From the sequence record OR424388.1: a stretch of DNA of 64,000 nucleotides. One strand, 5' to 3'. Source of the stretch: Escherichia phage HEMP5. Under the pieces are notes generated by a model. That model was not told where the DNA came from. It made no database searches and saw nothing but the letters and a program-made list of their open reading frames with translations. A program made the position numbers and the translations under genes. Below, one piece after another: positions 2,641-43,115 of this stretch. Within the stretch, counting starts at the first letter, position 1; every line of letters starts with the position of its first letter.

Positions 2641-3267
2641 TTAACCTCTATTCATAAAAGCATTAAAAATTTGGTCATCAATAGAAACATCTACTTTAGA
2701 CTGTTTTTCTGATGGTAATTCATATCCACATATTACAATTTTGTGATCAATATCAAAATACACAGAAGCAATATGATTAATGATGTTTTCAGTAAAGTCT
2801 AAATCAACATCAATATCTTTTTGACCACAGCCCAAAGGATAAATAATGCGAGTAATTCGATTATCTTTAACAAAGATTCCACCGACATACTCTGTGCTGC
2901 GTTTAAAGTCTACACGCCAACGAAATGAAAAATATTCAGGCTCTTTATGAGCTCTGCTCATAGGACACAACGAGTAACTAGAATAAGAGATGTCAAATCC
3001 TACGCCTTCAATATGAGCCAAAGTATCATGATTAAACCAATTATAATCGTACGCCAAATCCATTAGATTATAATATGTAAAAGGCACCGGATTAACGTCA
3101 TTAATCACAAGCATGTAATTAGCAACTGCTATAATTTCATTGTTTTTAACGAATACAAACCGTGATTGATGCGAATGACCTGGACCCGCGTTTTCACGAT
3201 TAATGATATAACACTGGGCACCTTTATATTTGTATGTATCTTTGCACTTGTGCATTTGATAGAGCAT
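2641..3267 (-). CDS. hypothetical protein at the T4 61.2 position (possible AdfA-like anti-DarT factor by synteny)
   Basis: 208 aa; TAATG overlap with sp; assignment to the AdfA family rests on position and recall only, no motif confirmed. Confidence 0.7.
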   Translation of the reverse strand: MLYQMHKCKDTYKYKGAQCYIINRENAGPGHSHQSRFVFVKNNEIIAVANYMLVINDVNPVPFTYYNLMDLAYDYNWFNHDTLAHIEGVGFDISYSSYSLCPMSRAHKEPEYFSFRWRVDFKRSTEYVGGIFVKDNRITRIIYPLGCGQKDIDVDLDFTENIINHIASVYFDIDHKIVICGYELPSEKQSKVDVSIDDQIFNAFMNRG

Positions 3268-3560
3268 TATTCACCTACCACTTCAGCGATGATATTTTTA
3301 TTATTAAAGTTTTTATCGCAATACAGAACATAATTATACTGCATTACACCACCAGACTTAAGCTGTTTTTGCACTTCAGCTTTCATTTCGGGGCGATCGC
3401 GCTCAACGATATTCATAATATCTGCTTCAATTTGAGTTTCAACCTCAGTCTGATCCGCAGTCATAGACCATTCGCACAAATCTTTATCATAGCCTGCCAT
3501 GGCAGGTTGAGCAGCGCAAGAAGCTAAAGCAAAAATTGCAGCAAAGATAAATTTTTTCAT
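3267..3560 (-). CDS. sp: Spackle periplasmic protein (inhibitor of gp5 tail lysozyme; superinfection exclusion)
   Basis: 97 aa; signal peptide with lipobox-like LASC; GAGG RBS; matches recalled T4 Sp length and sequence. Confidence 0.85.
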   Translation of the reverse strand: MKKFIFAAIFALASCAAQPAMAGYDKDLCEWSMTADQTEVETQIEADIMNIVERDRPEMKAEVQKQLKSGGVMQYNYVLYCDKNFNNKNIIAEVVGE

Positions 3561-3879: not shown

Positions 3880-4062
3880 TTATCCTCGGCAATCTACTTC
3901 ACATACTTTCTTGTCATCAATGAAAGCTTTAACTAATGCTTTATTAACTTCAGCATACTGAGTAGTAACCCATTGAACATCATCTTTCATCATTGTGGTT
4001 TCTTTAGTAAACATGCTTTCATTCTTAAACCACCCCATAAAAACTACCTTTACCAATTCCAT
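3880..4062 (-). CDS. dmd: Dmd antitoxin (inhibitor of host RnlA/LsoA toxins; T4 61.5)
   Basis: 60 aa MELVKVVFMGWFKNESMFTKE...; GGAG RBS; matches recalled T4 Dmd. Confidence 0.85.
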   Translation of the reverse strand: MELVKVVFMGWFKNESMFTKETTMMKDDVQWVTTQYAEVNKALVKAFIDDKKVCEVDCRG

Positions 4063-4120
4063 AACAATCTCCTCATTTAACCAACAAGACTACTATACCA
4101 TAGTCTTGTCAGCTTGTAAA

Positions 4121-5548
4121 CTAAAATTTTAATTCATTCGCCAAAGCATCTAACTGAGCTCGAGTGGATTCATTTCTTTGATAGCGATTCTGTTCAGCCT
4201 GAATCTGTTGTGAACCTGCTACTTCACTCACTTCGGTTGGAGTAGAATCTTGTTCAATTTCTACCCATTTTTGATTTCCTTTTTGAACACCCATCAAAAA
4301 CTTATTCCACTTATTCTTATCACCATATCGTGATTTGATTTGCTTAATAAGTTGTTGTTCAGCAGCTGCCAACTCCTCGGTTTCAATGACCGCAAGCATA
4401 AAATCAGCTGTCGCTGGAAGACCAGCAGATTCTGCGATATCACTCATGTTAACATCGGAAGAGTCCCAAGCTTGTTTACCGACCTGTGCTGCAGTCCAAA
4501 GAACAGTTTCGGTTTCAACAGCAAGAGCACGCAATTCCTCTGCAATAGCTTTAACAGTTGTGTAACTATTTTCTGAATAAACTCTAATGCGGCAAGATTT
4601 ACAAATACCTAGATAGTCGACAATAATGATTGTTGGAACAAAATTCTTCTTGAGCTTCAATTCATTCAAGAGAGACCTGAATGTGTTAGCATCTGCCCCA
4701 CCAGTGGGATACTGTTTAACGATTAAACGACCAAGAGTAGATTTCTCACGCCATTTTTCCATTTTTCCTTTATACTCAGCGTAAGAAATATGCCCATCAT
4801 CAATGTCATCAAGAGAAACATCAAGCATATTAGCATCAATACGCTTAGCACAGACTTCTTCTGCCATTTCCATGGAAATGTAAAGAACATTATGTCCGAG
4901 CTGCAAATAATCTGCTGCCAATGAACAAAGTCCTAATGATTTACCAACGTTAACGCCAGCCATTAAAACGTTCAGTGTCCCAGTCTCAGCTCCGCCTTTA
5001 GTAATTTTGTTTAGAATTCTGAGTTTAAATGGAACCTTACGAGCTTTATTCATATAAGATAGCCAACGTGCTTCGTAGTCATCCATCCAATCATGACCAA
5101 CGTAACTATCAAATGAAATTGATAATGCTTGGCGCATGATGTCAGGAATAGCACCAACGTCCGGCATTTTCTTATTTCGTTTTTCCGGAGGAAGCTCAGC
5201 ATTAGTTTGAATTTCGATTATTTTAGACGTAGCATTAAACATCGCCCTTTGCTGAACATATTTTTCTGTTTCTTTTACTAACCAGCTGTGGTCTTCCGGA
5301 GAATCAGCTAGTTTTGAAATAAGTGTTTTTACACCAGAATATTCTGTTTCAGTAAATGAACTATTTTCTAATGCAACATTTAACGCATTAATAGATGGAA
5401 CGCTATGGTACTCGTTAACATGAGATTTAATTAATTTGAACGTATTTTTAGCTGGACCACTTTCAAAATATTCTGAATCCATATATGGCCAAACTTTTGA
5501 AAAATAAGCTTGATCAAATATGAGATGAGAAAGAATAATTTCTACCAC
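4121..5548 (-). CDS. 41: replicative DNA helicase gp41 (DnaB-like)
   Basis: 475 aa; Walker A GVNVGKS; initiates at GTG 5 nt after AAGGAG; start overlaps the gene 40 stop. Confidence 0.95.
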   Translation of the reverse strand: MVEIILSHLIFDQAYFSKVWPYMDSEYFESGPAKNTFKLIKSHVNEYHSVPSINALNVALENSSFTETEYSGVKTLISKLADSPEDHSWLVKETEKYVQQRAMFNATSKIIEIQTNAELPPEKRNKKMPDVGAIPDIMRQALSISFDSYVGHDWMDDYEARWLSYMNKARKVPFKLRILNKITKGGAETGTLNVLMAGVNVGKSLGLCSLAADYLQLGHNVLYISMEMAEEVCAKRIDANMLDVSLDDIDDGHISYAEYKGKMEKWREKSTLGRLIVKQYPTGGADANTFRSLLNELKLKKNFVPTIIIVDYLGICKSCRIRVYSENSYTTVKAIAEELRALAVETETVLWTAAQVGKQAWDSSDVNMSDIAESAGLPATADFMLAVIETEELAAAEQQLIKQIKSRYGDKNKWNKFLMGVQKGNQKWVEIEQDSTPTEVSEVAGSQQIQAEQNRYQRNESTRAQLDALANELKF

Positions 5549-41558: not shown

Positions 41559-41744
41559 TTAAAGCATATTCACATAAGCTATTAATTCGTTTTCTTTCTT
41601 ATCAAACCGATCAGCAAATTCTTCCTGGTGTTCGGGAGATAGCGGGCCGTATTCATCATAAAAGGTGTTTGCTTCTGTATGCTCATCTAGAAGTTCATGG
41701 ATAAGCTCAAACAATTTATCTTTTTGTTCTTTACTCAGACTCAT
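41559..41744 (-). CDS. hypothetical acidic protein (tk.1 position)
   Basis: 61 aa; ATG start. Confidence 0.6.
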   Translation of the reverse strand: MSLSKEQKDKLFELIHELLDEHTEANTFYDEYGPLSPEHQEEFADRFDKKENELIAYVNML

Positions 41745-41914
41745 ATATTAATTTCCAGAAGTTTTAAAATAATTCGCTTTTGCTTAAATATTTCCATAGT
41801 TAAATGATCAGTATCTTTTTGACCAATTCCGATGGCAAAACCTTTATTAACAGCGAGTTCAATTAAATTATCAAGCTCACGTAACACTTCATATTGTAAC
41901 TCAGAACTATTCAT
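41741..41914 (-). CDS. small hypothetical protein (57 aa)
   Basis: ATGA overlaps at both ends with neighbouring genes; MNSSELQYEVLRELDNLIELAVNKGFAIGIGQKD... Confidence 0.45.
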   Translation of the reverse strand: MNSSELQYEVLRELDNLIELAVNKGFAIGIGQKDTDHLTMEIFKQKRIILKLLEINI

Positions 41915-42117
41915 TTTGGTTTACCTTCTTTAACAAAATCGGGATAAGGATAAAATCCTGAATAAAATCCTTCACCTTTATGATTAATGCATCCTTTATT
42001 AGAGCAATAGCACCAATAATCGAAATCACAAGCCATTTCATCATTGCATAAAGCAAAAACAACTGGCCATTTACACTTTTCACAATGTGCATTTTTAAGA
42101 ATGCTAATTTGGCTCAT
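41911..42117 (-). CDS. cysteine-rich small protein
   Basis: 68 aa from ATG overlapping the upstream stop (ATGA); 9 Cys (CEKCKW...CNDEMAC...CYCSNKGC). Confidence 0.55.
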   Translation of the reverse strand: MSQISILKNAHCEKCKWPVVFALCNDEMACDFDYWCYCSNKGCINHKGEGFYSGFYPYPDFVKEGKPK

Positions 42118-42326
42118 AACCATGTAACCTTTAAGCAATATTCTTCTACATGCTGTTTACGACCTTTCTTATCAATAAAGGTATATTCAACGAATGTTCC
42201 AATATAGTCTTTATCTACATCATGTGGACTATTAATTGGGCATTTAGTACGGCAAATGCGTTCCCATTGACGAATAATTTCCACTTTGTTTTTAGGATCA
42301 AACGGATGCGGGTAATGTGCTTTCAT
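42114..42326 (-). CDS. hypothetical protein
   Basis: 70 aa; ATG start. Confidence 0.6.
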   Translation of the reverse strand: MKAHYPHPFDPKNKVEIIRQWERICRTKCPINSPHDVDKDYIGTFVEYTFIDKKGRKQHVEEYCLKVTWL

Positions 42327-42777
42327 AATCCACCACTATTAAATCAATATCAGGAGTAAACATGTCGATTAATTTAGAAACCTTATCCCAATCACCGCCA
42401 GCAATACCACAACCTATGCGTGGAATGTAAATTACTGGTTTAAACAAAAGGGTTTCTGCCTGTAGATTTAATTCTATCATGCAGTTTACTAAAGCACCAT
42501 AATCAAGATTAGGACCTGGTTCGTATTGTGTATACAGGTTATAGCATATACCAAATCCTGTAGGATTATGTTTAAAAACAATAGACATATCACCTAATTT
42601 ATCACGAGAACCGTACTCAGTAGTGGTTTTATCTATTTCTAAAATTTTAGGATAGGCCCTTGCTAATTGACCTGCTACACCTGAACCCATAGTATGAAAG
42701 CAGTTGCACCCATGCGCAATAATATTACCTTGAAGAAATAGGGCGACAATATCGCCCTTGATATATTTTACAATCAT
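42298..42777 (-). CDS. macro-domain protein (predicted ADP-ribose binding/hydrolase)
   Basis: 159 aa; macro-domain-like motifs KGDIV...IIAHGCNCFHTMGSGVAGQLA and IPRIGCGIAGGDW; ATGA overlap upstream. Confidence 0.8.
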   Translation of the reverse strand: MIVKYIKGDIVALFLQGNIIAHGCNCFHTMGSGVAGQLARAYPKILEIDKTTTEYGSRDKLGDMSIVFKHNPTGFGICYNLYTQYEPGPNLDYGALVNCMIELNLQAETLLFKPVIYIPRIGCGIAGGDWDKVSKLIDMFTPDIDLIVVDYESTLPASV

Positions 42778-43115
42778 CTAGTACTCAATCCTCGATTATA
42801 AGAATCTACCAAACGGTCAACCATTGAATGACAAGCGGCTTTATCTTTCTCCTCCGCAACTGAACATTCTAAGGTATTCCACTTTTTAGCATATCGTTTT
42901 AATAAAGTATCATTTTTGTATCTGCTTGATTTATCTCTTTCTCCGTCTTTATATGCATATATTAATTTCTGCGCAAATTCAGCTTGGCATGCTTTATTTT
43001 TCCCGCAATAATCCGCGGCAGTACGGTTTACATACTCTCTAATTTCAGTATATGATGTATTTGCTAACGCAGAAAATGAAATTAATCCTATACATAAAAC
43101 CAAAATTTTAGTCAT
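42774..43115 (-). CDS. secreted protein (signal peptide)
   Basis: 113 aa; N-terminal signal peptide MTKILVLCIGLISFSALA; 4 Cys. Confidence 0.7.
   Translation of the reverse strand: MTKILVLCIGLISFSALANTSYTEIREYVNRTAADYCGKNKACQAEFAQKLIYAYKDGERDKSSRYKNDTLLKRYAKKWNTLECSVAEEKDKAACHSMVDRLVDSYNRGLSTR

What the first reader, a model, noticed from the sequence alone, without database searches (positions are those of the whole stretch)
42298..42777. Phage macro-domain protein in an operon of small Cys-rich and secreted proteins
The 159-aa ORF has macro-domain hallmarks (KGDIV...IIAHGCNCFHTMGSGVAGQLA and IPRIGCGIAGGDW). Macro domains bind or hydrolyse ADP-ribose, and the antitoxin DarG uses one to reverse DNA ADP-ribosylation by DarT. 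A phage macro domain could therefore counter ADP-ribosylation-based or NAD-derived-signal-based defences. The window also carries a gene at the 61.2 position (2641-3267), where I recall the anti-DarT factor AdfA being reported. I do not recall any assigned function for a T4-family macro-domain gene.
Basis: partly seen in the sequence, partly recalled or inferred. Interest (0 to 1): 0.7.

Follow-up and report, generated by a model that had tools for sequence, protein, structure and literature searches.

The report
T4 tk.4 (AdfM) macrodomain anti-DarTG2 gene

Summary
Window 42298-42777 (minus strand) is a 159-aa ORF with a significant Macro domain hit and a confident macrodomain model (pLDDT 92.9). 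The window is a Tequatrovirus. The ORF lies between tk.3 and vs, so it is the positional orthologue of T4 tk.4.

In a Nov 2025 bioRxiv preprint, tk.4 was the only T4 gene needed to grow on DarTG2. A clean knockout sensitised T4, and the gene was renamed adfM. The 61.2/AdfA recollection is also correct (Pfam AdfA, E=1.9e-134).

Two points go beyond the literature I found:
- The T-even protein is not DarG-like. The catalytic lysine of DarG and TARG1 is an invariant glutamine (Q84) here. The nearest solved relatives are BT1257 and SCO6735, and SCO6735 is a Gln-dependent thymidine-ADP-ribose DNA hydrolase. PhiKZ "AdfM" is a different, DarG-type protein.
- This allele is only 57-58% identical to T4 Tk.4, while the flanking genes are 93-100% identical. 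The gene is a local divergence island.

Hydrolase activity has not been shown biochemically for any T-even Tk.4. Verdict: real, correctly interpreted, essentially already known, modest interest.

The parts
42298..42777 (-). tk.4/adfM orthologue: 159-aa single-domain macrodomain protein (ATG 42777-42775, stop TGA 42300-42298)
   Evidence: ORF and translation; Pfam Macro E=5.8e-8; PHROG 335 E=1.6e-71; AF2 pLDDT 92.9; Foldseek hits to TARG1, Poa1p, DarG and BT1257; 58% identity to T4 Tk.4, E=1e-69; same position as T4 tk.4
42700..42714 (-). codons H22-G23-C24-N25-C26 (HGCNC), the ADP-ribose-site motif. N25 corresponds to SCO6735 Asn27 and DarG's conserved Asn. G23 corresponds to SCO6735 Val25, whose backbone positions the proposed catalytic water.
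   Evidence: H22, G23, N25 and C26 are invariant in the 69-sequence family alignment A1. Correspondence comes from the profile alignment to 5e3b and the SCO6735 mutagenesis paper PMC9411070.
42526..42540 (-). codons N80-L81-Y82-T83-Q84 (NLYTQ). Q84 occupies the position of the catalytic Lys of DarG (K80) and TARG1 (K84), and of Gln85 in SCO6735.
   Evidence: N80, Y82 and Q84 are invariant. hhalign to Taq DarG (97.6%) and to TARG1 (98.2%) puts Q84 on the Lys. The profile alignment to BT1257 and SCO6735 puts Q on Q. Q85A and Q85E are inactive in SCO6735.
42388..42423 (-). codons P119-W130 (PRIGCGIAGGDW), the glycine-rich phosphate-binding loop. G122 and G124 correspond to SCO6735 G126 and G128. 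A126 sits where TARG1 has catalytic Asp125.
   Evidence: P119, I121, G122 and G124 are invariant; G127, G128 and W130 are conserved in at least 90% of sequences; alignments
42774..42793 (-). translation start region: GAGGA (42793-42789), then the tk.4 ATG (42777-42775) overlapping the vs stop TGA (42776-42774) as ATGA, which suggests translational coupling to vs
   Evidence: read directly from the sequence and the ORF list
42290..42650 (.). divergence island relative to T4: 42-73% nucleotide identity, against 95% or more in the flanking tk.3 and vs
   Evidence: sliding-window identity on a MAFFT alignment to NC_000866; per-gene protein identities are tk.4 57% against 93-100% for rI.-1, rI, rI.1, tk, tk.3, vs, vs.1 and regB
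42740..42758 (-). terminator-like G+C-rich hairpin (AGGGCGAUAUUGUCGCCCU followed by a U-rich tail) inside codons 7-13 of the ORF; function unknown
   Evidence: pattern scan; RNA fold -14.3 kcal/mol, z=-2.05; annotated as 'terminator' at the same place in phage vB_EcoM_SP1
2641..3267 (-). 61.2 / AdfA, a second and unrelated anti-DarT factor in the same window (context only)
   Evidence: Pfam AdfA PF23813 E=1.9e-134, full length; T4 adfA = 61.2

Best explanation
The ORF is this phage's orthologue of T4 tk.4 (adfM), an orphan, antitoxin-like macrodomain enzyme. It most likely protects replicating phage DNA from the DarTG2 toxin-antitoxin defence by hydrolysing the ADP-ribose that DarT2 puts on thymidine N3 in single-stranded DNA. 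Shown here: the macrodomain fold and motifs, and orthology to T4 tk.4 by position and sequence. Shown in the literature, for T4 only: the genetic requirement of tk.4 for growth on DarTG2 hosts. Inferred: the enzymatic step. By residue conservation it would follow the Gln-dependent, water-mediated mechanism described for SCO6735, using N25, Q84, G122/G124 and the backbone at G23. It would not follow the Lys-dependent mechanism of DarG and TARG1. Also inferred: that this 58%-identical allele has the same target as the T4 allele.
For: Fold and family: Pfam Macro, AF2 pLDDT 92.9, Foldseek hits to TARG1, Poa1p, DarG and BT1257 at TM 0.7-0.8. Orthology: the window is a Tequatrovirus; the gene order tk, tk.3, tk.4, vs, vs.1, regB matches T4; identity to T4 Tk.4 is 58%, E=1e-69. 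Genetics in T4: tk.4 was the only significant hit on DarTG2, and the knockout was sensitised. Mechanism: Q84, N25, H22, G122 and G124 are invariant across 69 homologues. Q84 aligns with DarG K80, TARG1 K84 and SCO6735 Q85. The family profile matches BT1257 (7.9e-19) and SCO6735 (6.2e-16) better than DarG (8e-13 and 8e-11). SCO6735 cleaves thymidine-linked ADP-ribose from ssDNA, rescues DarT toxicity and loses activity with Q85A/E and N27S (PMC9411070). A phage macrodomain has been shown in vitro to remove DarT2 ADP-ribose (PhiKZ gp104).
Against: No biochemistry exists for any T-even Tk.4; the preprint infers hydrolysis from structure similarity. This allele is only 57-58% identical to the tested T4 protein and sits in a recombinant divergence island, so its specificity could differ. 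The two lysines that SCO6735 uses to hold DNA (K34, K89) are not conserved: S32 replaces K34, and the mobile loop is about 5 residues shorter. By my count from the sequence the protein is net acidic, with 12 K+R against 17 D+E. The T4 result comes from a preprint using plasmid-expressed DarTG2 at 30 C in minimal medium.
Confidence: 0.72

Rival explanations
1. ADP-ribose-1''-phosphate (Appr1p) phosphatase of the Poa1p type, as the long-standing T4 annotation says. It would clear a small-molecule by-product of RNA repair or a toxic ADPr-phosphate metabolite, rather than repairing DNA.
For: The T4 record annotates tk.4 as 'phosphatase; contains A1pp phosphatase motif', and PHROG 335 is named 'phosphatase'. 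Yeast Poa1p structures are strong sequence and fold hits (6lfu 1.5e-9; 6lfr 1.1e-9). The HxCNC motif, with H22 and T29, matches the Poa1p positions whose H23A and S30A mutants were crystallised.
Against: This activity would not explain the DarTG2-specific phenotype of T4 tk.4. The family profile matches BT1257 and SCO6735 better than Poa1p. Many macrodomains show weak Appr1p phosphatase activity in vitro without that being their role (general knowledge, and the review).
Confidence: 0.08
2. A broader or different eraser: this allele mainly removes ADP-ribose from other substrates, such as uracil in RNA or Glu/Asp in proteins. That could include marks made by the phage's own ADP-ribosyltransferases or by other host defences. 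DarT2 reversal would then be one of several activities, or a property of the T4 allele only.
For: SCO6735, the closest characterised relative, also acts on protein substrates and on uracil-linked RNA ADP-ribose. The allele is strongly diverged from T4 within an otherwise near-identical backbone, a pattern expected for genes under arms-race selection.
Against: All active-site residues are identical between the two alleles (alignment; invariants). No defence that ADP-ribosylates uracil or acidic residues is known to target T-even phages. T4 Alt and ModA modify arginine (general knowledge), which this macrodomain class is not known to reverse.
Confidence: 0.12
3. A binder or degrader of NAD-derived immune signals (for example Thoeris gcADPR or His-ADPR), acting as a sponge or signal hydrolase.
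For: [quoted passage not shown] Macrodomains bind ADPr-containing ligands generally.
Against: There is no experimental link. The T4 screen tied tk.4 to DarTG2 only. The conserved residue set matches an enzyme that acts on base-linked ADPr.
Confidence: 0.04

Closest known systems
T4 Tk.4 = AdfM (anti-DarT factor Macrodomain), bioRxiv 10.1101/2025.11.20.689424
   Same: Same genomic slot between tk.3 and vs, with the stop and start codons overlapping. Same size (159 vs 155 aa). 58% identity over the full length, E=1e-69. Identical active-site motifs HGCNCFHTMGSGVAGQL and NLYTQ.
   Different: Only 57-58% identical, although the flanking genes are 93-100% identical. The glycine loop is GCGIAGG here and GAGIGKG in T4. 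The C-terminus is 4 aa longer and overlaps tk.3 by 29 nt. This allele has not been tested.
Streptomyces coelicolor SCO6735 (PDB 5E3B) and Bacteroides BT1257 (2AFC/2FG1): Gln-type ALC1-like macrodomains
   Same: They are the best solved-structure matches to the family profile (7.9e-19 and 6.2e-16). They share Gln at the catalytic position (Q84 = Q85), plus Asn (N25 = N27), His (H22 = H24) and the two glycines (G122/G124 = G126/G128). All are stand-alone proteins not encoded next to a DarT. SCO6735 hydrolyses thymidine-ADPr on ssDNA and rescues DarT toxicity.
   Different: About 25-28% identity only. The DNA-contacting K34 and K89 of SCO6735 are absent and the mobile loop is shorter. SCO6735 and BT1257 are cellular proteins; this one is from a phage.
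DarG antitoxin macrodomain (T. aquaticus 5M31/5M3E, M. tuberculosis 5M3I)
   Same: Same fold (TM 0.73-0.77). Detectable sequence homology (hhalign 97.6%). Same presumed substrate, dT-ADPr on ssDNA made by DarT2.
   Different: The catalytic Lys80 is replaced by Gln. There is no C-terminal DarT-binding domain (159 aa in total, against HMMs of 329-338 positions). There is no adjacent darT. It scores 27.8 bits against the NCBIfam DarG cutoff of 250 and 27.7 bits on PADLOC DarG, where PhiKZ gp104 scores 132.9.
PhiKZ gp104 'AdfM' (Cell Rep 2026, PMC13309987)
   Same: It is a phage-encoded orphan macrodomain that counters DarTG2. In vitro it removes DarT2-made ADP-ribose from DNA.
   Different: It belongs to a different macrodomain subfamily. 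gp104 is DarG-like and keeps the FPTK lysine (5m3i 9.4e-25). BLASTP to the window protein gives only a 23-residue match at E=0.001. The same name therefore covers two independently recruited proteins.
Human TARG1/OARD1 (4J5S)
   Same: Top Foldseek hit (E=6.7e-10, TMt 0.82). TARG1 also removes thymidine-linked ADPr.
   Different: The TARG1 catalytic dyad Lys84/Asp125 corresponds to Gln84/Ala126 here.

Membership tests
Macro domain superfamily (Pfam PF01661) | Significant match to the Macro HMM above the gathering threshold | tested here: met
   E=5.8e-8, 33.1 bits against a cutoff of 22, covering residues 22-136
Macro domain superfamily (Pfam PF01661) | Three-layer alpha/beta/alpha macro fold with a glycine-rich ADP-ribose cleft | tested here: met
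   AF2 pLDDT 92.9, pTM 0.88. 177 PDB hits at E<=0.001, and all 50 listed are macrodomains or macrodomain-derived designs. GxG and GCGIAGG loops are conserved.
T-even Tk.4 / AdfM | Located between tk.3 and vs in a Tevenvirinae genome | tested here: met
   ORF order in the window against the NC_000866 annotation; flanking genes are 93-100% identical to T4
T-even Tk.4 / AdfM | Full-length sequence homology to T4 Tk.4 | tested here: met
   58% identity, 74% positives, no gaps, E=1e-69. This is a distinct allele class: 312 phage records are >=90% identical to the window type and 224 to the T4 type.
T-even Tk.4 / AdfM | Required for phage growth on DarTG2-expressing hosts | not testable with these tools
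   Shown for T4 only
SCO6735/BT1257-type (Gln) ALC1-like macrodomain hydrolases | Gln at the position of the DarG/TARG1 catalytic Lys, with the supporting Asn and Gly residues | tested here: met
   Q84, N25, G122 and G124 are invariant in 69 homologues. Alignment to 5e3b and 2fg1. The mutational importance of these residues in SCO6735 is reported.
SCO6735/BT1257-type (Gln) ALC1-like macrodomain hydrolases | Basic residues K34 and K89 and an extended mobile loop that hold ssDNA | tested here: not met
   S32 replaces K34. The loop after Q84 is about 5 residues shorter and has no lysine.
SCO6735/BT1257-type (Gln) ALC1-like macrodomain hydrolases | Hydrolysis of thymidine-N3-linked ADP-ribose on ssDNA | not testable with these tools
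   Requires an in vitro assay
DarG antitoxin (DarTG2) | Catalytic lysine (Taq K80) in the FPTK motif | tested here: not met
   NLYTQ aligns to NFPTK, and the Gln is invariant in the family
DarG antitoxin (DarTG2) | C-terminal DarT-binding domain; full-length match to DarG models | tested here: not met
   The protein is 159 aa. It matches only positions 2-142 of 338 and scores 27.8 bits against a cutoff of 250. PADLOC DarG gives 27.7 bits.
DarG antitoxin (DarTG2) | Encoded next to a darT toxin gene | tested here: not met
   The neighbours are tk.3 (DUF7202) and vs, with no ART-like gene nearby
Poa1p-like Appr1p phosphatase | His and Ser of the HxCNC...S motif (Poa1p H23, S30) | tested here: inconclusive
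   H22 is present and invariant; T29 stands where Poa1p has S30. SCO6735 and BT1257, which are not known as phosphatases, share the same His.
Poa1p-like Appr1p phosphatase | ADP-ribose-1''-phosphate phosphatase activity | not testable with these tools
   Requires an enzyme assay

The most novel reading that the evidence does not exclude
T-even phages carry at least two tk.4/adfM allele classes, 57-58% identical, swapped as a cassette into an otherwise 95-100% identical backbone. The classes may be functionally diversified. This allele might counter a different ADP-ribosylating defence, such as another DarT2 clade, uracil/RNA ADP-ribosylation or a small ADPr-derived signal. Alternatively it might escape a host factor that inhibits or senses the T4-type protein. 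In that case the T4 result would not simply transfer. A linked point: the T-even enzyme would be the first phage counter-defence shown to use the lysine-free, Gln/water mechanism rather than the DarG mechanism.
Probability: 0.15. Interest if true: 0.5.

Novelty: already known. Interest (0 to 1): 0.25.

Why it matters
With 61.2/AdfA in the same window and 30.3/AdfN elsewhere in T4-type genomes, T-even phages carry at least three separate anti-DarT genes, which underlines how strongly DNA ADP-ribosylation selects on them. Two things remain useful. First, 'AdfM' now names two unrelated macrodomain subfamilies: the PhiKZ protein is DarG-like with a catalytic Lys, and the T-even protein is SCO6735-like with Gln. 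Mechanistic and inhibitor conclusions should therefore not be carried from one to the other. Second, the gene is a recombination and divergence hotspot, so allele-specific host-range effects are worth testing when choosing or engineering T4-like therapeutic phages.

Tried and rejected
1. I first read the gene as DarG-like, as the preprint does. I rejected DarG membership because the catalytic Lys is absent, there is no C-terminal domain, there is no darT neighbour, and the DarG HMM scores are far below cutoff.
2. I compared the protein with PhiKZ gp104 'AdfM', expecting homology. There is only a 23-residue match at E=0.001, so it is a different subfamily.
3. I looked for the Poa1p structure paper to learn its residue at the Lys/Gln position. 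It is not in the searchable library, so the Poa1p comparison rests on PDB titles and partial alignments.
4. The promoter and terminator scan found no excess over shuffled sequence (13 promoter-like sites against 14.9 expected), so it neither supports nor refutes the 'operon' claim.
5. I checked whether bacterial homologues sit beside DarT. The one chromosomal example (Pelagimonas) stands alone, and the other example is a phage-like contig. That sample is too small to generalise.
6. The CmdTAC paper mentions macrodomains only in its reference list, so it offers no link to this gene.
7. One call used 42298-42774 on the minus strand by mistake, which dropped the initiator Met. This does not affect the results.

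Full report
**Observation.** Window 42298-42777 contains a 159-aa ORF on the minus strand, running from ATG at 42777 to TGA at 42298-42300. The ORF is clearly a gene:
- It matches Pfam Macro (PF01661) at E=5.8e-8 and 33.1 bits, above the gathering score of 22.
- It matches PHROG 335 ('phosphatase') at E=1.6e-71.
- tblastn finds homologues in 2,777 phage records.
- An AlphaFold2 model built on a 69-sequence alignment has mean pLDDT 92.9 and pTM 0.88.
- Its best Foldseek matches in the PDB are all macrodomains: TARG1 6.7e-10, Poa1p 1.1e-9, T. aquaticus DarG 5.5e-9, BT1257 6.6e-9 and M. tuberculosis DarG 3.3e-8, with TM-scores of 0.7-0.8.

**Identity of the gene.** The window comes from a T4-like phage. 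A 1.8-kb stretch around the ORF is 99.8% identical to Escherichia phage FL33, and 95-99% identical to 368 further phage records, most of them from Escherichia and Shigella phages.
- On the same strand the order is rI.-1, rI, rI.1, tk, three small ORFs, tk.3 (DUF7202), this ORF, vs, vs.1 (SLT-like) and regB.
- In the T4 reference record the gene between tk.3 and vs is tk.4. It encodes 155 aa and is annotated 'phosphatase; contains A1pp phosphatase motif'.
- The window protein aligns to T4 Tk.4 over its full length without gaps, at 58% identity and E=1e-69. It is therefore the positional and sequence orthologue of tk.4.
- Its ATG overlaps the vs stop codon (ATGA) and follows a GAGGA. Its 3' end overlaps the tk.3 start by 29 nt. 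This fits co-translation within a run of early genes.
- The 'small Cys-rich and secreted proteins' description is fair. The 41911-42138 ORF is a phage zinc-binding domain protein. vs and vs.1 begin with hydrophobic leader-like segments, which I read from the sequences.
- 'Operon' itself was not tested, and the promoter and terminator scan showed no excess over shuffled sequence.

**What is already published.** A bioRxiv preprint of November 2025 (10.1101/2025.11.20.689424) screened a T4 transposon library on E. coli expressing DarTG2.
- tk.4 was the single significant hit, and a clean tk.4 knockout became sensitive to DarTG2.
- The authors renamed the gene adfM (anti-DarT factor Macrodomain).
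- They inferred enzymatic removal of ADP-ribose from DNA from similarity to the M. tuberculosis DarG macrodomain, without biochemistry.
- Separately, a Cell Reports 2026 paper gave the same name to PhiKZ gp104. It showed in vitro that gp104 removes DarT2-made ADP-ribose from DNA.
Window 2641-3267 matches Pfam AdfA over its full length at E=1.9e-134, and T4 adfA is gene 61.2.

The statement that no function had been assigned is out of date.

**Mechanism: like DarG in outcome, but not a DarG.** In the 69-sequence family alignment the invariant residues are H22, G23, N25, C26, M30, G33, A35, N80, Y82, Q84, P119, I121, G122 and G124.
- Profile-profile alignment places NLYTQ (80-84) on the NFPTK of T. 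aquaticus DarG and the LITK of human TARG1. Q84 therefore occupies the position of the catalytic lysine (DarG K80, TARG1 K84), and A126 that of TARG1 Asp125.
- T4 Tk.4 has the same Gln.
- The family profile matches BT1257 (7.9e-19) and S. coelicolor SCO6735 (6.2e-16) better than TARG1, Poa1p or DarG, and both of those have Gln at this position.
- SCO6735 has been characterised (PMC9411070). It lacks the Lys/Asp dyad, yet cleaves thymidine-linked ADP-ribose from ssDNA with high turnover and rescues DarT toxicity.
- SCO6735 is inactivated by Q85A or Q85E and nearly so by N27S. The proposed mechanism uses a water molecule held by the Val25 backbone, with Gln85 positioning the distal ribose.
- The window protein conserves the equivalents: G23 (backbone), N25, Q84, G122 and G124.
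- It does not conserve the lysines SCO6735 uses to hold DNA. K34 corresponds to S32, and the K89 loop is about five residues shorter. By my count from the sequence the protein is net acidic.
- DarG models score it far below membership level: NCBIfam DarG 27.8 bits against a cutoff of 250, and PADLOC DarG 27.7 bits against 132.9 for PhiKZ gp104.
- PhiKZ gp104 keeps the FPTK lysine and hits DarG structures at 9.4e-25. It shares only a 23-residue BLASTP match with the window protein.

The two 'AdfM' proteins are therefore independent recruitments from different macrodomain subfamilies. I did not find this distinction stated in either paper.

**Divergent allele.** Protein identities to T4 are 93-100% for rI.-1, rI, rI.1, tk, tk.3, vs, vs.1 and regB, but 57% for tk.4.
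- Nucleotide identity is 95% or more in tk.3 and vs. It falls to 42-73% across about 42290-42650 and recovers to 80-87% at the 5' end of the ORF.
- Both allele classes are common: 312 phage records are at least 90% identical to the window type, and 224 to the T4 type.
- The active-site motifs are the same in both classes. The glycine loop differs, with GCGIAGG here and GAGIGKG in T4.
- This pattern of cassette exchange is typical of arms-race genes. It leaves some doubt that the T4 phenotype transfers unchanged.
- The tk.1/tk.2 region just downstream in the transcript is also replaced relative to T4.

**Rival explanations.**
- The old 'Appr1p phosphatase' annotation rests on Poa1p similarity and does not explain the DarTG2 phenotype.
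- A broader eraser role, on RNA uracil-ADPr or protein Glu-ADPr, is plausible because SCO6735 has those activities. It may coexist with DarT2 reversal.
- A role against NAD-derived signals, as argued generally for phage macrodomains, has no specific support.

**Verdict.** The function is essentially already known through the T4 orthologue (preprint-level genetics), although no biochemistry exists for the T-even protein. The remaining novelty is modest: a Gln-type, SCO6735-like catalytic site rather than a DarG-like one, and a strongly diverged allele whose specificity is untested.

Noticed in passing
window 42740-42758 (minus strand): A terminator-like G+C-rich hairpin (8 bp, -14.3 kcal/mol for the 61-nt context, z=-2.05) followed by a U-rich tract lies inside codons 7-13 of tk.4. 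This stretch is 100% identical to T4, and phage vB_EcoM_SP1 annotates it as 'terminator'. It could attenuate read-through from vs, or it could be chance.
   Followed up: partly
window 41559-42138 (minus strand): Between tk and tk.3 the T4 genes tk.1 and tk.2 are replaced by three different small ORFs. One is DUF7438 (61 aa, 54% identical to T4 Tk.2). One is a 57-aa ORF with no Pfam hit. One is a 75-aa Cys-rich 'Phage_zn_bind' protein (PF23895) that overlaps tk.3 by 25 nt. This is a second mosaic patch right next to the tk.4 divergence island.
   Followed up: partly
window 42774-43115 (minus strand): vs (valyl-tRNA synthetase modifier, 113 aa, 97% identical to T4) has no Pfam match. It begins with a hydrophobic signal-peptide-like segment, which is odd for a protein said to modify a cytoplasmic synthetase. 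The HIDEN-SEQ preprint reports vs as the most depleted T4 gene in minimal medium.
   Followed up: no
window 2641-3560 (minus strand): AdfA (61.2; PF23813, E=1.9e-134) sits directly next to Spackle (61.3; PF25676, E=5.5e-45). The window therefore holds two distinct anti-DarT genes, adfA and tk.4/adfM, about 39 kb apart.
   Followed up: partly
literature (PMC13309987 vs bioRxiv 10.1101/2025.11.20.689424): The name AdfM has been given independently to two non-orthologous phage macrodomains. PhiKZ gp104 is DarG-type with a catalytic Lys. T4 Tk.4 is SCO6735/BT1257-type with Gln. This naming collision could mislead annotation transfer.
   Followed up: yes
L003 (Pelagimonas phthalicica SOAP01000002.1) 4001-4459: A chromosomal bacterial homologue of the Tk.4 family (P0088, about 40% identity) is a stand-alone gene with no DarT or other ART neighbour, as is the case for SCO6735.
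   Followed up: partly
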